Shown here: positions 45,001 through 51,000 of the stretch, one piece after another
Position numbering within the stretch: position 1 is the stretch's first letter
How the letters are laid out: each line of letters starts with the position of its first letter
Source of the DNA: Naegleria gruberi
Taxonomy: Eukaryota
Assembly (NCBI GenBank): GCA_000004985.1
Contig: GG738934.1
DNA length: 64,000 bases
Reading direction: 5' to 3' (one strand)
Position numbers: made by a program

Positions 45001-48000
45001 GATGAAGAGCTTGTAAAATATGCTACATCCAAAAGGAATAGAATGTCTGCAAGTACTTTGATAATGAGTGCCATTTATACTTCAACCTTTCATGATAATC
45101 CTCAATTTTCTATTAATACTTTGAAATATGCGTTAAGACAAGCATCATTCGTTCAGAAAATAACCATCAACTCCAAGATTAAGGAAATTGAAGTTAGACA
45201 CGGCTATCAAATGACAACCGAGTTTAGTACTATGCTGCTACAAGCTCAAAAGGTGGAAAATAGATTGCTAATGTTCAGAAAATTGTTTTGGCAATACTTT
45301 GTTAGCAATGAAGACGATCAAAACAAAATTAACGCTATCGTTCATGCCATGTACAAAACTTTTGAGGAAGGAAAGGTAATTTATGACCTGCTAGTTGTTT
45401 CCAATCCTGAAAATCAAGTTCTAGCAAAAAAGAGAGCGTTATATTTTGATAATTTCTTATTTAGAAAGGTAATGACCAGTAAGAAGTCATCACCTTCTTT
45501 GAATAAGGAAGCTACTGGTGAGGATAGCAAATCGACAATTTCGAACAGGTCTACACAGAATCCAGAGGTAACAAAGAGCCAACAGGTACAAGTGAATGAT
45601 CAAGCCCACGAATACACTGAAAAGGTGTACAGAGAGGCAATTAATACCAAGTTTACTATGAAACTAACCTTCCTATTTTTGATTTATGATGCCATTGCTC
45701 TGCTAGCTATTTCAGTTGGAATAATTATTGGTGTAATCTCTTCTCTTCATGGAGATGAACTTGTAAGAATCTTACACGCCTGTCAATTCACTAATGTTCC
45801 GTATTCTCTATTGAGGGAAGTTAGATTGGCTTATTATTTTAGAAATGATCCTTCCACTTATAATTTTAACAATTTTTATGAAAGAATTACTGCTTTAAAG
45901 CACCTTACAGAAGATGGCAAAATTAAAAGCTATTCACATCTTTCTGGAGATGCTTTAAACTATTACTCTGGGAATAACTTCCCAGTCATGGTACCCACAA
46001 TTTCTGCTGATAATAGAGTATCCTATAAGTGGCAAAATGTATCAATTGCCTCCTTGATATCCGATATCGAAGTAGTTGTCAACAAGTTAAATTCATGGAA
46101 TATTAACAGCTTCCAAAATTTAGAGAGCAATTATGAATATTTGTACCTCTCATTTAACCATGAATTAACATCTGGGTATATGGACCAGTATTGCCAGTCT
46201 CTCACAAATGGAGTGGTAAATCACCCATACGATGAGGCAGTAATAGTCAACTCTGTTTTGTTAGGTCTACTTGTAGTAGCCACTGTTATTGTAATCGTAT
46301 TACTAGCAACACTTAATATCAAAGAAAAGATAATCAGTCTCTTTTCAAAAATACCAAAAGATATTGTGGGAATTCTGAATATTGAGTTGGAAAAGCAAAC
46401 TGATAAGAAGTGCGACAATAGCTCATACTCTGAAATATTTACATTCAAAGTGAAATTGTTGATGGTTCTTTTGGTAATATTTCTAGTTTGTGTTACTTCC
46501 TTATCAGTAACATTTTATGAAGCTTACAGTTTAGATTTCAGTTCTAGAAGCTCAACTTTAAAGCTTGGTTACATGTCTTCCCTACTGATAAATCTTCATA
46601 AGGATCAATTAATACTAGAAAACAAGATTATTAATGGATCTAGCAATAGTTTGGGTTCTTCCAACAATGCTATTGAACGTTCATGGATCGTTTTTAGATA
46701 TGGTAACCATAACTATCCAACAACTTTACATTCTATATCAAGCAATGCCAAGTTCTTACTTGAAGGTAATAGTAGTTGTGGTACAATTAATTGCACAGGT
46801 CTTGATTCATTATTAGAGAAATATGTAATGAATATGGACTCTATTGCCTTCAGTACTAAATTGTCCAATTCCACTCTTGTAATGTTTTCCACCCTACTCT
46901 CTGCAATTTCAGCTAAGATACATTCTCTTGGAGATGATTTAGTAGATCCAATAGTGGGTGTTCAAACCAAATTGGCTCTTGGTGTTTTCTCTGGAGCTTT
47001 TGTTTTGATATTGATTATTGCAGGATTACACTACGCAGAGCTGCGAGAATATGTTGATGAATGTAATCACACAAGAAGTATGCTTAGTATGATACCTTTT
47101 GATATAATTTCGCANNNNNNNNNNNNNNNNNNNNNNNNNNNNNNNNNNNNNNNNNNNNNNNNNNATATTTGGTGAAGGTCAAAACTCTGTTTCTTTAAAG
47201 GCAGTACTAGATAAGTTATTGGTTGCTACCGAATCTGCTGGAGAACATTTGGAATTGGAAGCAGTCAGAAAGAATGGCAGTTCTCTCTCAGTTGGTGTGT
47301 CCGTATCTGTTTTCCACCATGAAAATAAGAATCTAATTACAATGCTATTGAGGGATATTACTTTCGAAAAAAAGGTATGTTTTTGTCACCTAATTCTAAT
47401 AATTGAATCATAATAATATTATTATAATATTCCATTAAATAATCAATAGCACAAATTATTGCTGGCAGAGGAGAGGAAGAAAAGTGATAATCTACTATTG
47501 AACATTCTACCAGAACGTATTGCTCAAAGATTGAAAGCTGGTGAGACAAGTATCTCTGAAAAGTTTGATGATTGTACATGTCTGTTCAGTGATATGGTTG
47601 GTTTCACCAAAATGTCATCAGGTCTCACTGCCTATGAATTGGTGCAACTTCTCAATTCAATTATTAATGGTTTCGATTCTTATATTACCCCTCTCGGTTT
47701 GGAGAAGATCAAGACGATTGGAGATGCTTACTTTTGTGTAGGAGGACTGAATGGACAGACAGATCACCCGGAAAAAGTAATTACATTTGCCATTCACATG
47801 CTATCTGTCATTAATAACTACAATACCAAGAACAATACCAAACTCAACATCAGGTAGGTTTTTCTCAATTTGATTTCATATCTAATTAATCATTAGAGTT
47901 GGAATCCACACTGGTCCAGTAATTGCTGGTTGTATTGGCCAACAGAAATTTGCATATGATTTGTGGGGTGAAACTCTAATTATTGCCAATTGTACGTATT

Positions 48001-51000
48001 ATTATAATTTTTGAAATTAAATTATCATTCGTGTAAAGTGATGGAATCTAAGGGAGTACCAGGAAGAATTCAAGCATCAAGAAAGACCTATGAAAGAGTA
48101 TATGATATTTTCGAATTTGAGGAAATCAAGGGAATTGAACTAAAACCATCAGTGCTCGTAAATACCTACTTACTCAAAGAGAAGCATCATGACATTAATA
48201 CAAACTTTAGTGATGGATTTGATAAAATGTTTGCAGGTCTCAATATGTTCAGTCCAAAAACCTATAACTTTTCCAAGATCATTCAAGACCGCTCTCTCAT
48301 TCAAGGATTCAAGGATTTCTTCACAGACTCTGAAAAGGTGAATATCATTAACTTTTACGAGTTGTGTCAAGAGTATGTGAGCTCTCCAATTCCAAGTCTT
48401 CGTTATAATATGGCAGAGAATATGGTAAGAGATTACCTTGAAGAAACTGCTCCCAAAAGATTGCAATTAAAGTATGTGAAGAATGCTTTTGGCCCATTTC
48501 AAATGAAATTCAAGGACTGTAATGATGATAATTGTCCTTCTGATTTATTTGAGAACTTCCAAAACCTATGTCTCAAAGTAAGTATTATTATTGTTGTTGT
48601 TCATCCAATCATTACAATTACTGTTGTACAATATTATAATATAACAATAATCCTTTTAAAGGCATTACGAGAAGAATTTCCAGCATTCATCAAGTCGAAG
48701 AATTTCAATAAGTTCTTGGAGCAAAAGAAACGTAACCCAGAACAGCTGAGACCTTATGTGAAGGATGAAAATGATGATGATGATGAGGATGATGAGAAGG
48801 CCTTCTTCAAGTTTTGTGAAAAGTGTGGAACTGAAATTATCAATTTGGAAAACCACCGTTTCAATGATTATGAATTTAACAATAGAAAGGAACTCTTGTT
48901 AGAGTTGAATCAGTGGAGTATTCACTTTGAGGGTAGTGGTGGTAAGACCTATATCAGTCCTGAGGTTGCTCACAACCATTTGAGTAATAGTAGAAGGCAC
49001 GTTCAACTCAAGTATGTGTACGATATGAATTGCAAACACAAGGACCTTTTCAATGCTTGGATTGATGAAAAATCCCTCTCAACACGAGTAGCACAATTAA
49101 CCTCCTCCAAACATGTTGATTCTGTACAGGTTGGAAAGTACATGCACGTGGTTTGTCATGAAAACTTCAAGATGCCCTTCCCACGCTCCAAGAGAGAATT
49201 TGTTCATGCCTATTCTTGTTCTTACAATCCAAGTGAAGAAGTCTACATGTGTATATCACGTAGTATTAACAATCCGAGAGCACCTCCATCAAGACAAATT
49301 CGTGGAGAAATCAAGACTGCCTTCATGGTCAAAAAGTTGTCTGAAACCACTTGTAGATATTACTATTCTGTTATTATTGATTGCATGGGAATGCTCTCAC
49401 CAGAGTATTATACCAAGAATATTTACAAGGAAATTCAACAAGATTGTTTCCATGTCAATTTGGTTAAATTTGTTGATGAATTTGCAAAGGAAAATCGACA
49501 ACCTTCCGGACCATTGGTAAATTCACTCAATTATTATTTGGAACATCATGATAGTAGTAAATAAATAGCTTATTATTTTGTTATTAGTTTCCTGTTGTTG
49601 TTATGATGAGGATAGCTTATTGTTATGTTATTAGTTTTCCTGTTGTTTCCATCATTGCATGTGATGAGGTGGCAACGATATTTTTTTTATTATTAAAAAA
49701 ATTGTGGACAGTTTTACCGTTATCGAATATTTACCTTCATCCCGAACTACAACATGCTCATCATGATAAATATTATAATTATTATTGGGTATCGGATGTA
49801 AAAACAAACAACTTGAAAATGTGCTTCATAATCATCATAGATATGCTAATGTACAAAAATGTTTCGCGTTTTACATTTCGATATTAAAATCAGCGGAATT
49901 ATTTCCACATAAAGACAAAAAAACAACACAAAAAAACCATTCAATACTAGCACTGCTGGATTAATCATCATTCGAAAGGTTTGACACTCATTGCTTTACA
50001 AAAAACCTTTCGAATTTTTCAAAATGGTCTTTGGAAACAATAATTCATCATCACCGAATGATATTTCACCTAGGAATAGACGATTCGTATTTCAACAAGC
50101 TACTACAACACACCATCATCATAATCATCATCATCACCATCATGGTGGTCATCATCACGAACAAGAAGATGATTCATTGGTTGCGAGTGGAGAATTGGTG
50201 ATGAGACAGAATGGATTTTTTGGTAGATGGAAAAAGTAAGTAAAATCTCCTTTACATGTGATTAGTTTACTTTCGTTCATTCACATGACTATTTGAAATG
50301 TTCATTTCTTTTGGTGTTGTCCAACTCTTAGATTCTTCTTTACACTAACAAAGGATGGAGCTTTTGTTAAATTCAAAACCTCTGATTTTCACACACCCAT
50401 GCAAACATACTTTCTAATATATTCACACAATTTAGTTTGTGACGGGCACAAAAACGACAAGTACAATATGGTGACAACAGAGGCTGCATTTGAATCACCC
50501 ACACTTCCTCAACCAGCTAATAATTTATGTGGAAAATCGAATAGTATGCTCTTGTTTGTGGAAAATTCAGTGGCAGAAAAGGAAACTCTTGTTGTGGTGG
50601 CTCCTTCTGCTGATCAGTACAATATGTGGATGAGAGCTTTTGAAATTGTATTTGAAAATGCAAAATATGAAATGACAGTTAGTACCATGATTGATGGTAC
50701 ATCCTCATCATCAGATTCTGGATCATCTTTCACAAGTCATGAATCATATCATTCAGATAAGCAAATTACATTTGATATTTACAAGAAGGGATTGAAGATT
50801 TCAAATTTAATTGATGCCATGACAGATCCTACTGTCATTGCAAATGATAAGGGAATAATTATAGGTGTAAATGGTGCAGCAGAGGCAATGTTTGAGTGGA
50901 AACATATTGAACTGATAGGAGAGAATGTCAAAGTTCTCATGCCAACAGTATTTGCCAAATATCATGACGAGTTTATCAATAATTACAAAAAGACGAGAAA

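What the first reader, a model, noticed from the sequence alone, without database searches (positions are those of the whole stretch)
47450..49564. Nucleotide cyclase fused C-terminally to an RGS-like block and a START lipid-binding domain
After the cyclase domain (…FSDMVGF…KIKTIGDAYFCVGGL…[14 protein letters not shown]…WGETL) the same reading frame continues through about 150 aa with RGS-like spacing (SLIQGFKDFFTDSEKVNIINFYELCQEY…LKYVKNAF…), and then through a domain matching START signatures (…SKREFVHAYSCSYNPSEEVYMCISRSINNPRAPPSRQIRGEIKTAFMVKKLSETTCRYYYSVIIDCMG…). A membrane-receptor cyclase with a lipid/sterol-binding START output or input is not a combination I know of. It would couple lipid sensing to cAMP/cGMP synthesis in one polypeptide.
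Basis: partly seen in the sequence, partly recalled or inferred. Interest (0 to 1): 0.75.

Follow-up and report, generated by a model that had tools for sequence, protein, structure and literature searches.

The report
Naegleria membrane cyclase fused to RGS–START
This amoeba (Naegleria) gene really does encode one membrane protein that joins a cAMP-making cyclase domain to a G-protein-regulator (RGS) domain and a lipid-binding START domain; the combination is conserved in related species but I found no description of it in the literature I could search.

Summary
The window is AT-rich Naegleria-type eukaryotic DNA with short GT..AG introns. Splicing 47168-47374 / 47450-47853 / 47897-47991 / 48039-48577 / 48662-49564 gives one reading frame. 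It holds a PAS tail, a class III cyclase domain (Pfam E=1.9e-49), a full RGS box (36.5 bits, cut-off 23.9) and a 250-aa C-terminal domain.

That domain misses Pfam START on its own. Its homologues score START above threshold. The family profile hits STARD10, PCTP and CERT in the PDB (E down to 2.6e-19). A confident model (pLDDT 83.5) matches only START structures.

One exon encodes both the end of the cyclase domain and most of the RGS box, so the fusion does not depend on the splice model. The same architecture occurs in N. gruberi XP_002683621.1 and N. fowleri XP_044569303.1, and as an intron-free ORF on a Logan contig. RGS–START is a mobile two-domain cassette, also found alone or after ankyrin repeats.

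Two refinements:
- The cyclase lacks the transition-state Asn and Arg, like mammalian C1. The divergently transcribed neighbouring cyclase lacks a metal-binding Asp, like C2. This suggests a heterodimer.
- The RGS catalytic Asn is Gln, so the domain more likely docks Gα than acts as a GAP.

All function is inferred. I rate it a new variant of a known kind, of moderate interest.

The parts
44959..47114 (+). Upstream coding part of the same gene: an open frame between two 50-N assembly gaps (44908-44957 and 47115-47164). It contains four predicted TM helices (45691-45747, 46255-46311, 46456-46512, 46972-47028) and two large loops between TM1/TM2 and TM3/TM4. The true 5' end is lost in the first gap.
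   Evidence: ORF list; hydropathy scan and BLASTP to N. gruberi P0002 residues 98-841, 36% identity.
47168..47374 (+). Exon carrying the C-terminal half of a PAS domain (PAS_9 match at nt 47222-47362). The first half of the domain, about 71 aa, is hidden in gap 47115-47164.
   Evidence: Pfam PAS_9 E=0.0011 on the fragment. The homologues have a complete PAS_9: 47 bits in P0002 and 50 bits in P0003. Gap size estimated from the BLASTP offsets.
47450..47853 (+). Exon with the signalling helix (47453-47533) and the first part of the class III cyclase domain (from 47555). It carries both metal-binding Asp residues (FSDMVGF, IGDAYF) and the adenine-specifying Lys (KTIGD).
   Evidence: alignment to AC9 C1 and C2.
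47897..47991 (+). Cyclase exon: [31 protein letters not shown]. It holds the adenine-specifying Asp (YDLWG). The transition-state Asn is replaced by Ile. The split codon T|TG puts Leu where the Arg of 'ASRM' should be.
   Evidence: (C2 'ydiwgdtvniasrmd' against query '[16 protein letters not shown]'). The same degeneracy is seen in L002 and in N. gruberi.
48039..48577 (+). A single exon that encodes the end of the cyclase domain (to nt 48178), a linker, and the first ~104 aa of the RGS box (from nt 48266).
   Evidence: Pfam domain limits converted to nucleotide positions. This exon is direct physical proof of the cyclase-RGS fusion.
48578..48661 (+). 84-nt in-frame intron with no stop codon (GTAAGT...AAAG), lying inside the RGS box.
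   Evidence: The insert is absent from homologues L001/P0001 and L002/P0034 and from the N. gruberi and N. fowleri proteins. With it removed, the RGS profile is matched end to end.
48662..48859 (+). Last RGS helix (to nt 48715), an acidic linker (DENDDDDEDDE), and a conserved CxxC hairpin (FCEKCGTEIINLENHRF; the CxxC lies at 48815-48826).
   Evidence: Weak Zn_Ribbon_1 hit on the same motif in P0004.
48860..49564 (+). START (helix-grip) lipid-binding domain, followed by the stop codon.
   Evidence: Family profile against the PDB: STARD10 E=2.6e-19, PCTP 2.5e-9, CERT 5.9e-9. AlphaFold2 model with pLDDT 83.5, pTM 0.79 and nine strands plus C-terminal helices. Foldseek against the PDB: the top 49 hits are all START domains. 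Pfam START is above threshold in homologues.
39528..44579 (-). Divergently transcribed neighbouring gene: multi-TM, PAS, cyclase, with an intron at 39756-39800. Its cyclase is C2-like. The second metal Asp is lost (KIKTIQSKYF), while Lys, Asp, Asn and Arg are kept (YDIWGDAVN|TASRME). It is a candidate heterodimer partner. This is an inference; it is not shown to be part of the same system.
   Evidence: Homologues P0035 (KIKTISEKYF) and P0036 (KIKTIGSKYF) carry the same kind of substitution.

Best explanation
SHOWN. The locus encodes one large Naegleria membrane protein. In order it has at least four TM helices with two large loops, a cytoplasmic PAS domain, a signalling helix, a class III ATP-type cyclase homology domain, an RGS box, a short CxxC hairpin, and a START lipid-binding domain. 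RGS-START is an evolutionarily mobile two-domain cassette. It occurs alone (Acrasis and unidentified eukaryotes), after ankyrin repeats (N. lovaniensis, N. fowleri), and after this cyclase (N. gruberi, N. fowleri, this genome and a Logan relative).

INFERRED MECHANISM. The protein is a receptor-type adenylate cyclase subunit that integrates several inputs.
1. Catalysis. The cyclase domain keeps both metal-binding Asp residues but has Ile and Leu in place of the transition-state Asn and Arg. It should therefore act like a mammalian C1 half. It would be active only when paired with a cyclase that supplies Lys, Asp, Asn and Arg. The head-to-head neighbour has exactly the complementary C2-like defect.
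2. RGS box. It docks an activated G-alpha subunit next to the catalytic core, in the way RGS-RhoGEF effectors do. Because the catalytic Asn (RGS4 Asn128) is Gln here, and Lys in the other Naegleria cassette members, binding or scaffolding is more likely than efficient GTPase acceleration.
3. START domain. It is closest to the phospholipid/ceramide branch (STARD10, PCTP, CERT). It would bind a membrane lipid and either tether the C-terminus to the bilayer or gate the RGS and cyclase domains according to lipid occupancy. cAMP output would then depend on G-alpha state and membrane lipid as well as on the PAS and loop inputs.
For: - Gene model and uninterrupted frame.
- Pfam cyclase and RGS.
- RGS family profile against PDB R4-type RGS proteins, E=4.6e-13, plus GRK2 RH and EhRGS-RhoGEF.
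- START: the query alone finds the Acrasis RGS-START protein at E=8e-12 among 1.8 billion proteins. That protein and six other homologues pass the Pfam START threshold, each with RGS just upstream. The profile hits STARD10 at 2.6e-19. The model has pLDDT 83.5, and all top 49 Foldseek PDB hits are START.
- Architecture conserved: N. gruberi XP_002683621.1 and N. fowleri XP_044569303.1, and a 503-aa intron-free ORF running from the cyclase end through RGS to START on Logan contig L002.
- C1-like cyclase: the domain scores higher against AC9 C1 (116.5 bits) than against C2 (93.2 bits) and shares 'ANLME'. Asn->Ile and Arg->Leu relative to C2 'TVNIASRMD'. The same loss is seen in L002 and in N. gruberi.
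- Complementary neighbour.
- RGS Asn->Gln/Lys only in the Naegleria clade.
- Precedent for an RGS-bearing G-alpha effector in Naegleria: Nf RGS-RhoGEF, PMC9283941.
Against: - There is no transcript, protein or biochemical evidence of any kind.
- The window's own START sequence fails Pfam PF01852.
- The most similar N. fowleri cyclase-RGS-START protein keeps all six catalytic residues ('GDTINMASRMES'). The C1-like state is therefore lineage-specific and could simply be decay.
- The head-to-head arrangement with a C2-like cyclase is not seen around the closest N. lovaniensis and N. fowleri homologues of the neighbour.
- Some RGS domains tolerate substitutions at the Asn128 position (from my own knowledge), so GAP activity is not excluded.
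- The lipid ligand is unknown.
- The 5' end of the gene and half of the PAS domain lie in assembly gaps.
Confidence: 0.6

Rival explanations
1. It is a self-sufficient homodimeric adenylate cyclase with a canonical GAP attached. The enzyme makes cAMP on its own. The RGS box accelerates GTP hydrolysis on the G-alpha that activates it, giving a built-in off-switch. START only anchors the tail to the membrane.
For: The closest N. fowleri relative has all six catalytic residues. The RGS profile match is full length and closest to GAP-competent R4 RGS proteins. Non-Naegleria RGS-START proteins keep the catalytic Asn.
Against: In this gene the transition-state Asn and Arg are Ile and Leu. The same loss is found in two related genomes, so it is not a sequencing error. 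The RGS Asn is Gln, and the SEEN motif is not conserved.
Confidence: 0.2
2. It is a catalytically dead pseudo-cyclase scaffold or membrane-anchored lipid-transfer protein. The START domain would be the working part, extracting or transferring lipid at a membrane. The RGS and degenerate cyclase domains would serve only for targeting or dimerisation, by analogy with the SNX-RGS proteins.
For: Both the cyclase and RGS domains have lost key catalytic residues. RGS domains co-occur with lipid-handling modules in SNX13/14/25 (PMC7956473; SNX25 and SNX13 are matched by the RGS profile). Stand-alone RGS-START proteins exist without any enzyme domain.
Against: Both metal-binding Asp residues and both substrate-specifying residues are kept intact, which is the pattern expected of a working C1-like half rather than of free decay. 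The PAS, cyclase and RGS-START part is 64-72% identical to N. gruberi, against 36% for the TM and loop part. That argues for strong constraint on the cytoplasmic domains.
Confidence: 0.15
3. It is a gene-model artefact. The cyclase and RGS-START would be two adjacent genes, or the C-terminal domain would be a different Bet v 1-like (SRPBCC) fold rather than START.
For: There are no transcript data. Pfam START does not hit this sequence directly. The N. gruberi database model is visibly mis-spliced at the cyclase/RGS junction.
Against: One exon spans the cyclase end and the RGS start. A relative has a single ORF with no intron across cyclase end, RGS and START. The top 49 structural matches are START proper; non-START folds appear only from rank 50 (PRELID1).
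Confidence: 0.03

Closest known systems
Naegleria PAS-containing transmembrane class III adenylate/guanylate cyclases (about 80 in N. fowleri; PMC9283941). The nearest are N. gruberi XP_002683621.1 and N. fowleri XP_044569303.1.
   Same: TM, PAS, signalling helix and cyclase layout. The C-terminal part is 64-72% (N. gruberi) and 44% (N. fowleri) identical, including the RGS-CxxC-START tail.
   Different: Those database entries are unannotated 'predicted' or 'hypothetical' proteins. The N. gruberi model skips the cyclase/RGS junction. The N. fowleri protein keeps the catalytic Asn and Arg that are lost here. The paper describing the Naegleria cyclase family does not mention an RGS or START tail.
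Mammalian membrane adenylate cyclase C1/C2 halves (AC9, AC5/AC2 structures) and soluble guanylate cyclase alpha/beta.
   Same: The best PDB match is AC9 C1. It shares the 'ANLME' motif in place of 'ASRM', and both metal Asp residues are kept. The neighbouring gene has the C2-type 'IxSxY' loss of the second Asp.
   Different: Here the two complementary halves would lie on two separate polypeptides encoded by divergent neighbouring genes, not in one chain. This protein also still has the Lys and Asp specificity residues that C1 lacks. Heterodimerisation is inferred, not shown.
RGS-RhoGEF effectors (mammalian p115/LARG; EhRGS-RhoGEF; Nf RGS-RhoGEF).
   Same: An RGS box sits in the same chain as a signalling enzyme, so that activated G-alpha docks on its effector. 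Nf RGS-RhoGEF binds and acts as a GAP on Nf G-alpha2 and G-alpha3 (PMC9283941). EhRGS-RhoGEF is matched by the RGS profile.
   Different: The enzyme here is a cyclase, not a DH-PH exchange factor. The RGS box is C-terminal to the enzyme. The Asn128-equivalent is Gln.
DLC1-3 / STARD12, STARD13, STARD8 (SAM-RhoGAP-START).
   Same: A GTPase-regulating domain is followed directly by a C-terminal START domain. The STARD13 START domain is among the top structural matches.
   Different: The partner domain there is a RhoGAP for small GTPases, not an RGS box for heterotrimeric G-alpha. There is no cyclase and no membrane anchor.
STARD10 / PCTP (STARD2) / CERT (STARD11) START domains.
   Same: These give the best sequence-profile matches (E=2.6e-19, 2.5e-9, 5.9e-9) and good structural matches (TM-score normalised to target 0.66-0.75). 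The 'SNRDF' Arg and the 'D..G' motif are conserved.
   Different: Identity is only about 13-15%. The Naegleria members carry an extra N-terminal CxxC hairpin and an HxH motif. The ligand is unknown.
SNX-RGS sorting nexins (SNX13/14/19/25; PXA-RGS-PX-PXC).
   Same: An RGS-type domain is combined with lipid-binding or lipid-handling modules in a membrane-anchored protein (PMC7956473). SNX25 and SNX13 are weakly matched by the RGS profile.
   Different: The lipid modules differ (PX and PXA/PXC rather than START). There is no cyclase, and the two are not homologous outside the RGS box.

Membership tests
Class III nucleotidyl cyclase (PF00211) | Sequence match to the cyclase homology domain above the curated threshold | tested here: met
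   168.2 bits against a cut-off of 21.9, covering profile 3-182 of 183. PDB hits to AC9, AC8, AC5 and mycobacterial Cya at E down to 6.6e-62.
Class III nucleotidyl cyclase (PF00211) | Six canonical active-site residues: two metal Asp, the substrate Lys/Asp (ATP) or Glu/Cys (GTP), and the transition-state Asn and Arg | tested here: not met
   Four of six are present: Asp (FSDMVGF), Asp (IGDAYF), Lys (KTIGD) and Asp (YDLWG), which is the ATP type. Asn->Ile and Arg->Leu in 'ETLIIANLMES'. The domain belongs to the fold, but a homodimer is predicted to be catalytically deficient (C1-like).
Class III nucleotidyl cyclase (PF00211) | Cyclase activity | not testable with these tools
   Needs an enzyme assay of the domain alone and together with a C2-like partner.
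RGS domain (PF00615) | Sequence match above the curated threshold over the whole box | tested here: met
   36.5 bits against 23.9, covering profile 1-117 of 117, but only after removing intron 48578-48661. The cassette profile hits RGS18, RGS8, RGS16, RGS5, RGS2 and RGS4 at E from 4.6e-13 to 5e-9.
RGS domain (PF00615) | G-alpha switch-contacting residues needed for GAP activity: the RGS4 Asn128 equivalent and the S-E-E-N motif of helix 3/4 | tested here: not met
   RGS2 'APKEINID' aligns to the query 'APKRLQLK', so Asn->Gln. 'SEEN' aligns to 'KVNI'. The Asn is kept in non-Naegleria RGS-START proteins but is Lys or Gln in all Naegleria ones.
RGS domain (PF00615) | Nine-helix bundle fold; G-alpha binding | not tested
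Binding needs biochemistry.
START domain (PF01852) | Direct match of this sequence to the Pfam model above 22 bits | tested here: not met
   No START hit at E<=10.
START domain (PF01852) | Homology to bona fide START domains by transitive or profile search | tested here: met
   The query alone finds P0006 at E=8.2e-12 and P0007 at 2.5e-10 in a 1.8-billion-protein library. These score 44.2 and 34.6 bits on PF01852. The family profile against the PDB gives STARD10 2.6e-19, PCTP 2.5e-9, CERT 5.9e-9 and StAR 2.4e-8.
START domain (PF01852) | Helix-grip fold: N-terminal helix, nine-stranded antiparallel sheet, long C-terminal helix | tested here: met
   The model has pLDDT 83.5 and pTM 0.79, with nine strands and C-terminal helices. 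The top 49 Foldseek PDB hits are all START, with TM-score normalised to target up to 0.80.
START domain (PF01852) | Hydrophobic tunnel that binds one lipid molecule | not testable with these tools
Needs cavity analysis and lipid-binding assays.
RGS-START cassette (defined operationally here) | An RGS box with the 'C[PS]xxLF[DE]' insertion, followed within about 60-130 residues (about 150 in the N. lovaniensis Ank-RGS-START protein P0004) by a START domain with the 'SNR[DE]F ... VR ... D..G' motifs | tested here: met
   Alignments A1 and A2. The same two Pfam domains are found in P0004, P0006, P0007, P0008, P0012, P0014, P0015 and P0034.

The most novel reading that the evidence does not exclude
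Two divergently transcribed neighbouring genes encode complementary half-cyclases. One is C1-like and carries RGS-START (44905-49564, + strand). The other is C2-like (39528-44579, - strand). They would assemble into an obligate heterodimer with a single active site. This would be an independent, in-trans reinvention of the mammalian C1/C2 design. Its activity would be set jointly by G-alpha docking on the RGS box and by lipid occupancy of the START domain, giving a lipid-gated, G-protein-coupled cAMP source in an early-branching eukaryote.
Probability: 0.25. Interest if true: 0.75.

Novelty: new variant of a known kind. Interest (0 to 1): 0.5.

Why it matters
Naegleria encodes roughly 80 cyclases and 80 or more RGS proteins, but how G-alpha subunits connect to cAMP in this lineage is unknown (PMC9283941). 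A cyclase that carries its own RGS box is a concrete, testable candidate for that link. The attached START domain suggests that membrane lipid state feeds into the same node. RGS-START would also be the heterotrimeric-G-protein counterpart of the RhoGAP-START (DLC) proteins, whose START function is still unclear. Finally, the complementary C1-like and C2-like degeneracy of two adjacent genes gives a simple experiment on how asymmetric cyclase dimers evolve. Because one Naegleria species is a lethal human pathogen, lineage-specific signalling enzymes are also of some practical interest.

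Tried and rejected
- Direct Pfam and PDB sequence searches with the C-terminal domain alone found nothing useful.
- A single-sequence AlphaFold2 model was useless (pLDDT 35.9).
- The word-indexed protein search found only one fragment (P0001). With the profile it found only three proteins.
The RGS and cyclase folds were not modelled.
- Foldseek against AFDB50 was unavailable.
- Exact look-ups of the N. gruberi protein and of the window ORF in the contig collection failed. 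The source organism and N. gruberi synteny could therefore not be checked.
- Synteny of the C2-like neighbour with a cyclase-RGS-START gene was looked for in N. lovaniensis and N. fowleri and not found.
- Literature searches for RGS-START or cyclase-RGS-START found no description.
- The two papers most likely to mention such architectures are not held: Anantharaman et al. 2011, Gene 475:63, and Fritz-Laylin et al. 2010, Cell 140:631. Prior description cannot be excluded.
- P0009, P0019 and P0020 from the exhaustive search are repeat proteins and were discarded as spurious.
- The ideas that RGS-START is a separate gene, or that the C-terminal domain is a non-START SRPBCC fold, were considered and rejected.

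Full report
WHAT THE SEQUENCE IS. The window is 33% G+C and gene dense, with short GT..AG introns and blocks of N. The best relatives of the encoded proteins are from Naegleria gruberi, N. fowleri and N. lovaniensis. Identities of only 36-72% to N. gruberi NEG-M show a different Naegleria-type heterolobosean. Exact look-ups of the window's ORF in public assemblies found nothing.

GENE MODEL. Canonical splice sites join 47168-47374 / 47450-47853 / 47897-47991 / 48039-48577 / 48662-49564 into one frame ending at TAA 49562-49564.
It is 48578-48661 (GTAAGT..AAAG, 84 nt, in frame, no stop), not 48580-48663.
- The junctions give a contiguous alignment to the N. fowleri protein through 'NIRVGIHTG...' and 'IIANLMESKGVPGR'.
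- Upstream, the same frame runs from 44959 to 47114 between two 50-N gaps and contains four hydropathy-predicted TM helices.
- Comparison with N. gruberi shows that gap 47115-47164 hides about 71 aa, the first half of the PAS domain. The 5' end is lost in gap 44908-44957.

DOMAIN CALLS. Pfam on the spliced 715-aa C-terminal part:
- Guanylate_cyc, aa 105-282, E=1.9e-49.
- RGS, aa 312-433, E=7e-9, 36.5 bits against a cut-off of 23.9, covering the whole 117-position profile.
- A PAS_9 tail.
- No START.

The RGS match spans the 84-nt intron, and the cyclase match spans two introns. This supports the splicing. Exon 48039-48577 by itself encodes the last ~47 aa of the cyclase domain, the linker and about 100 aa of the RGS box. 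The cyclase-RGS fusion is therefore physical and does not depend on any splice prediction. Reading through the last intron would also keep the frame open.

THE C-TERMINAL DOMAIN IS START.
- Alone, it finds nothing in Pfam or the PDB, and a single-sequence model was useless.
- An exhaustive phmmer search of 1.84 billion representatives found 22 hits. Three of them (P0009, P0019, P0020) were repeat proteins and were discarded as spurious.
- The real hits include N. gruberi XP_002683621.1 (69% identity), N. fowleri XP_044569303.1 (51%), N. lovaniensis and N. fowleri ankyrin-RGS proteins, Acrasis kona 'STARD6' (E=8.2e-12), and about ten 400-490-aa proteins from metagenomes and one unnamed NCBI assembly.
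- Pfam scores START above its 22-bit threshold in seven of these (24-49 bits). Six of the seven also have a Pfam RGS box immediately upstream. In the seventh, the N. fowleri cyclase protein (P0003, START 24.4 bits), Pfam did not call RGS, but the box is recognisable by alignment.
- A profile of the family headed by the window sequence (A1) hits solved START domains: STARD10 2.6e-19, PCTP 2.5e-9, CERT 5.9e-9, StAR 2.4e-8, and also STARD5, STARD6, STARD13 and STARD3.
- With that alignment, AlphaFold2 gives a confident model (pLDDT 83.5, pTM 0.79) with nine beta strands and long C-terminal helices.
- The top 49 Foldseek hits in the PDB are all START domains (E down to 3e-13, TM-score normalised to target 0.64-0.80).

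By sequence the family sits nearest the phospholipid/ceramide branch (STARD10, PCTP, CERT) rather than the sterol branch. This is a hint about the ligand, nothing more.

CONSERVATION OF THE ARCHITECTURE.
- N. fowleri XP_044569303.1 (2109 aa) has multi-TM, TPR_TmcB, TM, PAS, cyclase, RGS, CxxC and START.
- The N. gruberi model has the same order but is mis-spliced at the cyclase/RGS junction.
- A Logan contig (SRR15442817, L002) carries one uninterrupted 503-aa ORF from 'MESKGVPGR' (the last cyclase exon) through RGS to START. It lacks the 84-nt intron and has upstream cyclase exons on the same contig.
- An ENA metagenome fragment (L001) also lacks that intron.
- Stand-alone RGS-START genes lie on ordinary eukaryotic contigs.

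RGS-START is therefore a mobile two-domain cassette. Its signature is a 'C[PS]xxLF[DE]' insertion in the RGS box and 'SNR[DE]F ... VR ... D..G' in START. The Naegleria members add a conserved 'FCxKCG' hairpin and an 'HNHLSNSRRH' motif in front of the START core. A CCHH zinc site there is possible but untested.

CATALYTIC COMPETENCE OF THE CYCLASE.
- Aligned to AC9, the domain scores higher against C1 (116.5 bits) than against C2 (93.2 bits).
- It keeps both metal-binding Asp residues (FSDMVGF, IGDAYF) and the ATP-specifying Lys and Asp (KTIGD, YDLWG).
- Where C2 has 'TVNIASRMD' it has 'TLIIANLME'. The transition-state Asn is Ile and the Arg is Leu. AC9 C1 also reads 'ANLME'.
- The roles of these six residues come from established structural work on class III cyclases (my own knowledge).
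- The same loss is present in L002 ('ETVSVAQ') and in N. gruberi ('ETLTIAN'), so it is a real lineage feature. The N. fowleri relative keeps 'TINMASRMES'.
- A homodimer of this protein should therefore be a poor enzyme.

The divergently transcribed neighbour (39528-44579, minus strand; start codons about 325 bp plus a gap apart) is a multi-TM, PAS, cyclase protein with the opposite defect. It reads 'KIKTIQSKYF', with the second metal Asp replaced by Ser as in mammalian C2 'IGSTY', but has an intact 'YDIWGDAVN|TASRME'. Its closest homologues in N. lovaniensis and N. fowleri have 'ISEKYF' and 'IGSKYF', so a C2-like subfamily exists across the genus.

Complementary degeneracy in adjacent genes suggests a C1/C2-type heterodimer with one active site. 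The adjacency is not seen around those homologues in the other two species, and nothing here tests dimerisation. I give this reading about 25-30%.

THE RGS BOX. The cassette profile hits R4-type RGS proteins (E from 4.6e-13 to 5e-9), GRK2 RH, EhRGS-RhoGEF, axin and SNX25/13. In the pairwise alignment to RGS2, 'APKEINID' aligns with 'APKRLQLK'. The Asn that RGS4 (Asn128) inserts into the G-alpha active site is therefore Gln, and the 'SEEN' motif is 'KVNI'. Across the cassette, non-Naegleria members keep the Asn, while all Naegleria members have Lys or Gln. I therefore favour G-alpha docking or scaffolding over efficient GAP activity, by analogy with RGS-homology domains. In N. fowleri, an RGS-RhoGEF has been shown to bind G-alpha2 and G-alpha3 and to act as a GAP on them (PMC9283941). 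An effector that carries its own RGS box thus has precedent in this genus.

COMPARISON AND NOVELTY. The protein is a member of the known, very large Naegleria family of PAS-containing membrane cyclases. The new element is the C-terminal RGS-CxxC-START tail.
- PMC9283941 catalogues 80 cyclases and 79 extra RGS proteins in N. fowleri but, in the passages found, mentions no cyclase-RGS or START combination.
- Five full-text searches found no description of RGS-START or cyclase-RGS-START.
- The two papers most likely to list such architectures are not held, and the proteins sit unannotated in public databases. The claim is therefore 'undescribed as far as I could check', not 'unseen'.
- The nearest functional analogues are RGS-RhoGEF (an effector with an RGS box), DLC/STARD8/12/13 (RhoGAP-START) and the SNX-RGS proteins (RGS with lipid modules).

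VERDICT. I rate it a new variant of a known kind. Interest is moderate (0.5). The architecture is real, conserved and suggests testable experiments, but Naegleria is known for extravagant domain shuffling and all function is inferred. The possible in-trans C1/C2 heterodimer is the part most worth following up.

Noticed in passing
window 39528-44579 (- strand; intron 39756-39800): Divergent neighbouring gene encoding a multi-TM, PAS, cyclase protein. Its second metal-binding Asp is replaced ('KIKTIQSKYF'), while the Lys, Asp, Asn and Arg are intact ('YDIWGDAVN|TASRME'). This C2-like pattern is complementary to the C1-like focal cyclase. Homologues in N. lovaniensis and N. fowleri share the substitution, but not the neighbourhood.
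   Followed up: partly
window 50026-52165 (+ strand; intron about 50237-50331): The next gene downstream is another signalling protein. It has a His-rich N-terminus, a possible PH-like segment, a PAS domain (Pfam PAS, E=3.7e-10) and a weak C-terminal RGS match (E=0.0018, 19.1 bits, below threshold). Three consecutive genes therefore carry PAS, cyclase and/or RGS modules.
   Followed up: no
window 44908-44957 and 47115-47164 (also 1184-1954 and 61660-64000): Runs of N lie inside the focal gene. The second 50-N placeholder hides about 71 codons (the first half of the PAS domain), judged from the N. gruberi protein. The first hides the 5' end of the gene. The ATG at 44905 that abuts the gap is probably not the real start codon.
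   Followed up: partly
window 48815-48826 and about 48956-48991: A 'FCEKCGTEIINLENHRF' hairpin and a 'VAHNHLSNSRRH' motif precede the START core. Both are conserved in the Naegleria RGS-START proteins but absent from Acrasis and the metagenome homologues. A CCHH zinc site is possible. P0004 gives a weak Zn_Ribbon_1 hit on the same motif.
   Followed up: no
L002 about 320-1990: In the Logan relative, the cyclase exon equivalent to 47897-47991 is interrupted after 'GIHSGNAIAG' by about 1.6 kb of unrelated sequence. It resumes at '[14 protein letters not shown]'. This could be a large intron or a mobile-element insertion.
   Followed up: no
L001 about 600-842: The 842-bp ENA metagenome homologue needs two frame changes to follow the START region. 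These could be low-coverage assembly errors or a decaying copy.
   Followed up: no
L003 6900-7214 (- strand), next to 8001-9218: On a metagenomic eukaryotic contig, a stand-alone RGS-START gene has a small second gene nearby (786 bp away, with one small called gene between them) that gives a weak START hit.
   Followed up: no
window 3511-3578 (-), 33000-33109 (+), 39233-39315 (+): Rfam finds three tRNA genes. The 110-nt one at 33000 presumably contains an intron. ARAGORN reports only the tRNA-Gly(GCC) at 39233, which lies about 210 bp beyond the stop codon of the neighbouring cyclase gene.
   Followed up: no
window 44959-47114 compared with 47168-49564: The TM and loop part is only 36% identical to the N. 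gruberi protein, against 64-72% for the PAS, cyclase and RGS-START part. The sensor side of the receptor is evolving much faster than the cytoplasmic side.
   Followed up: no
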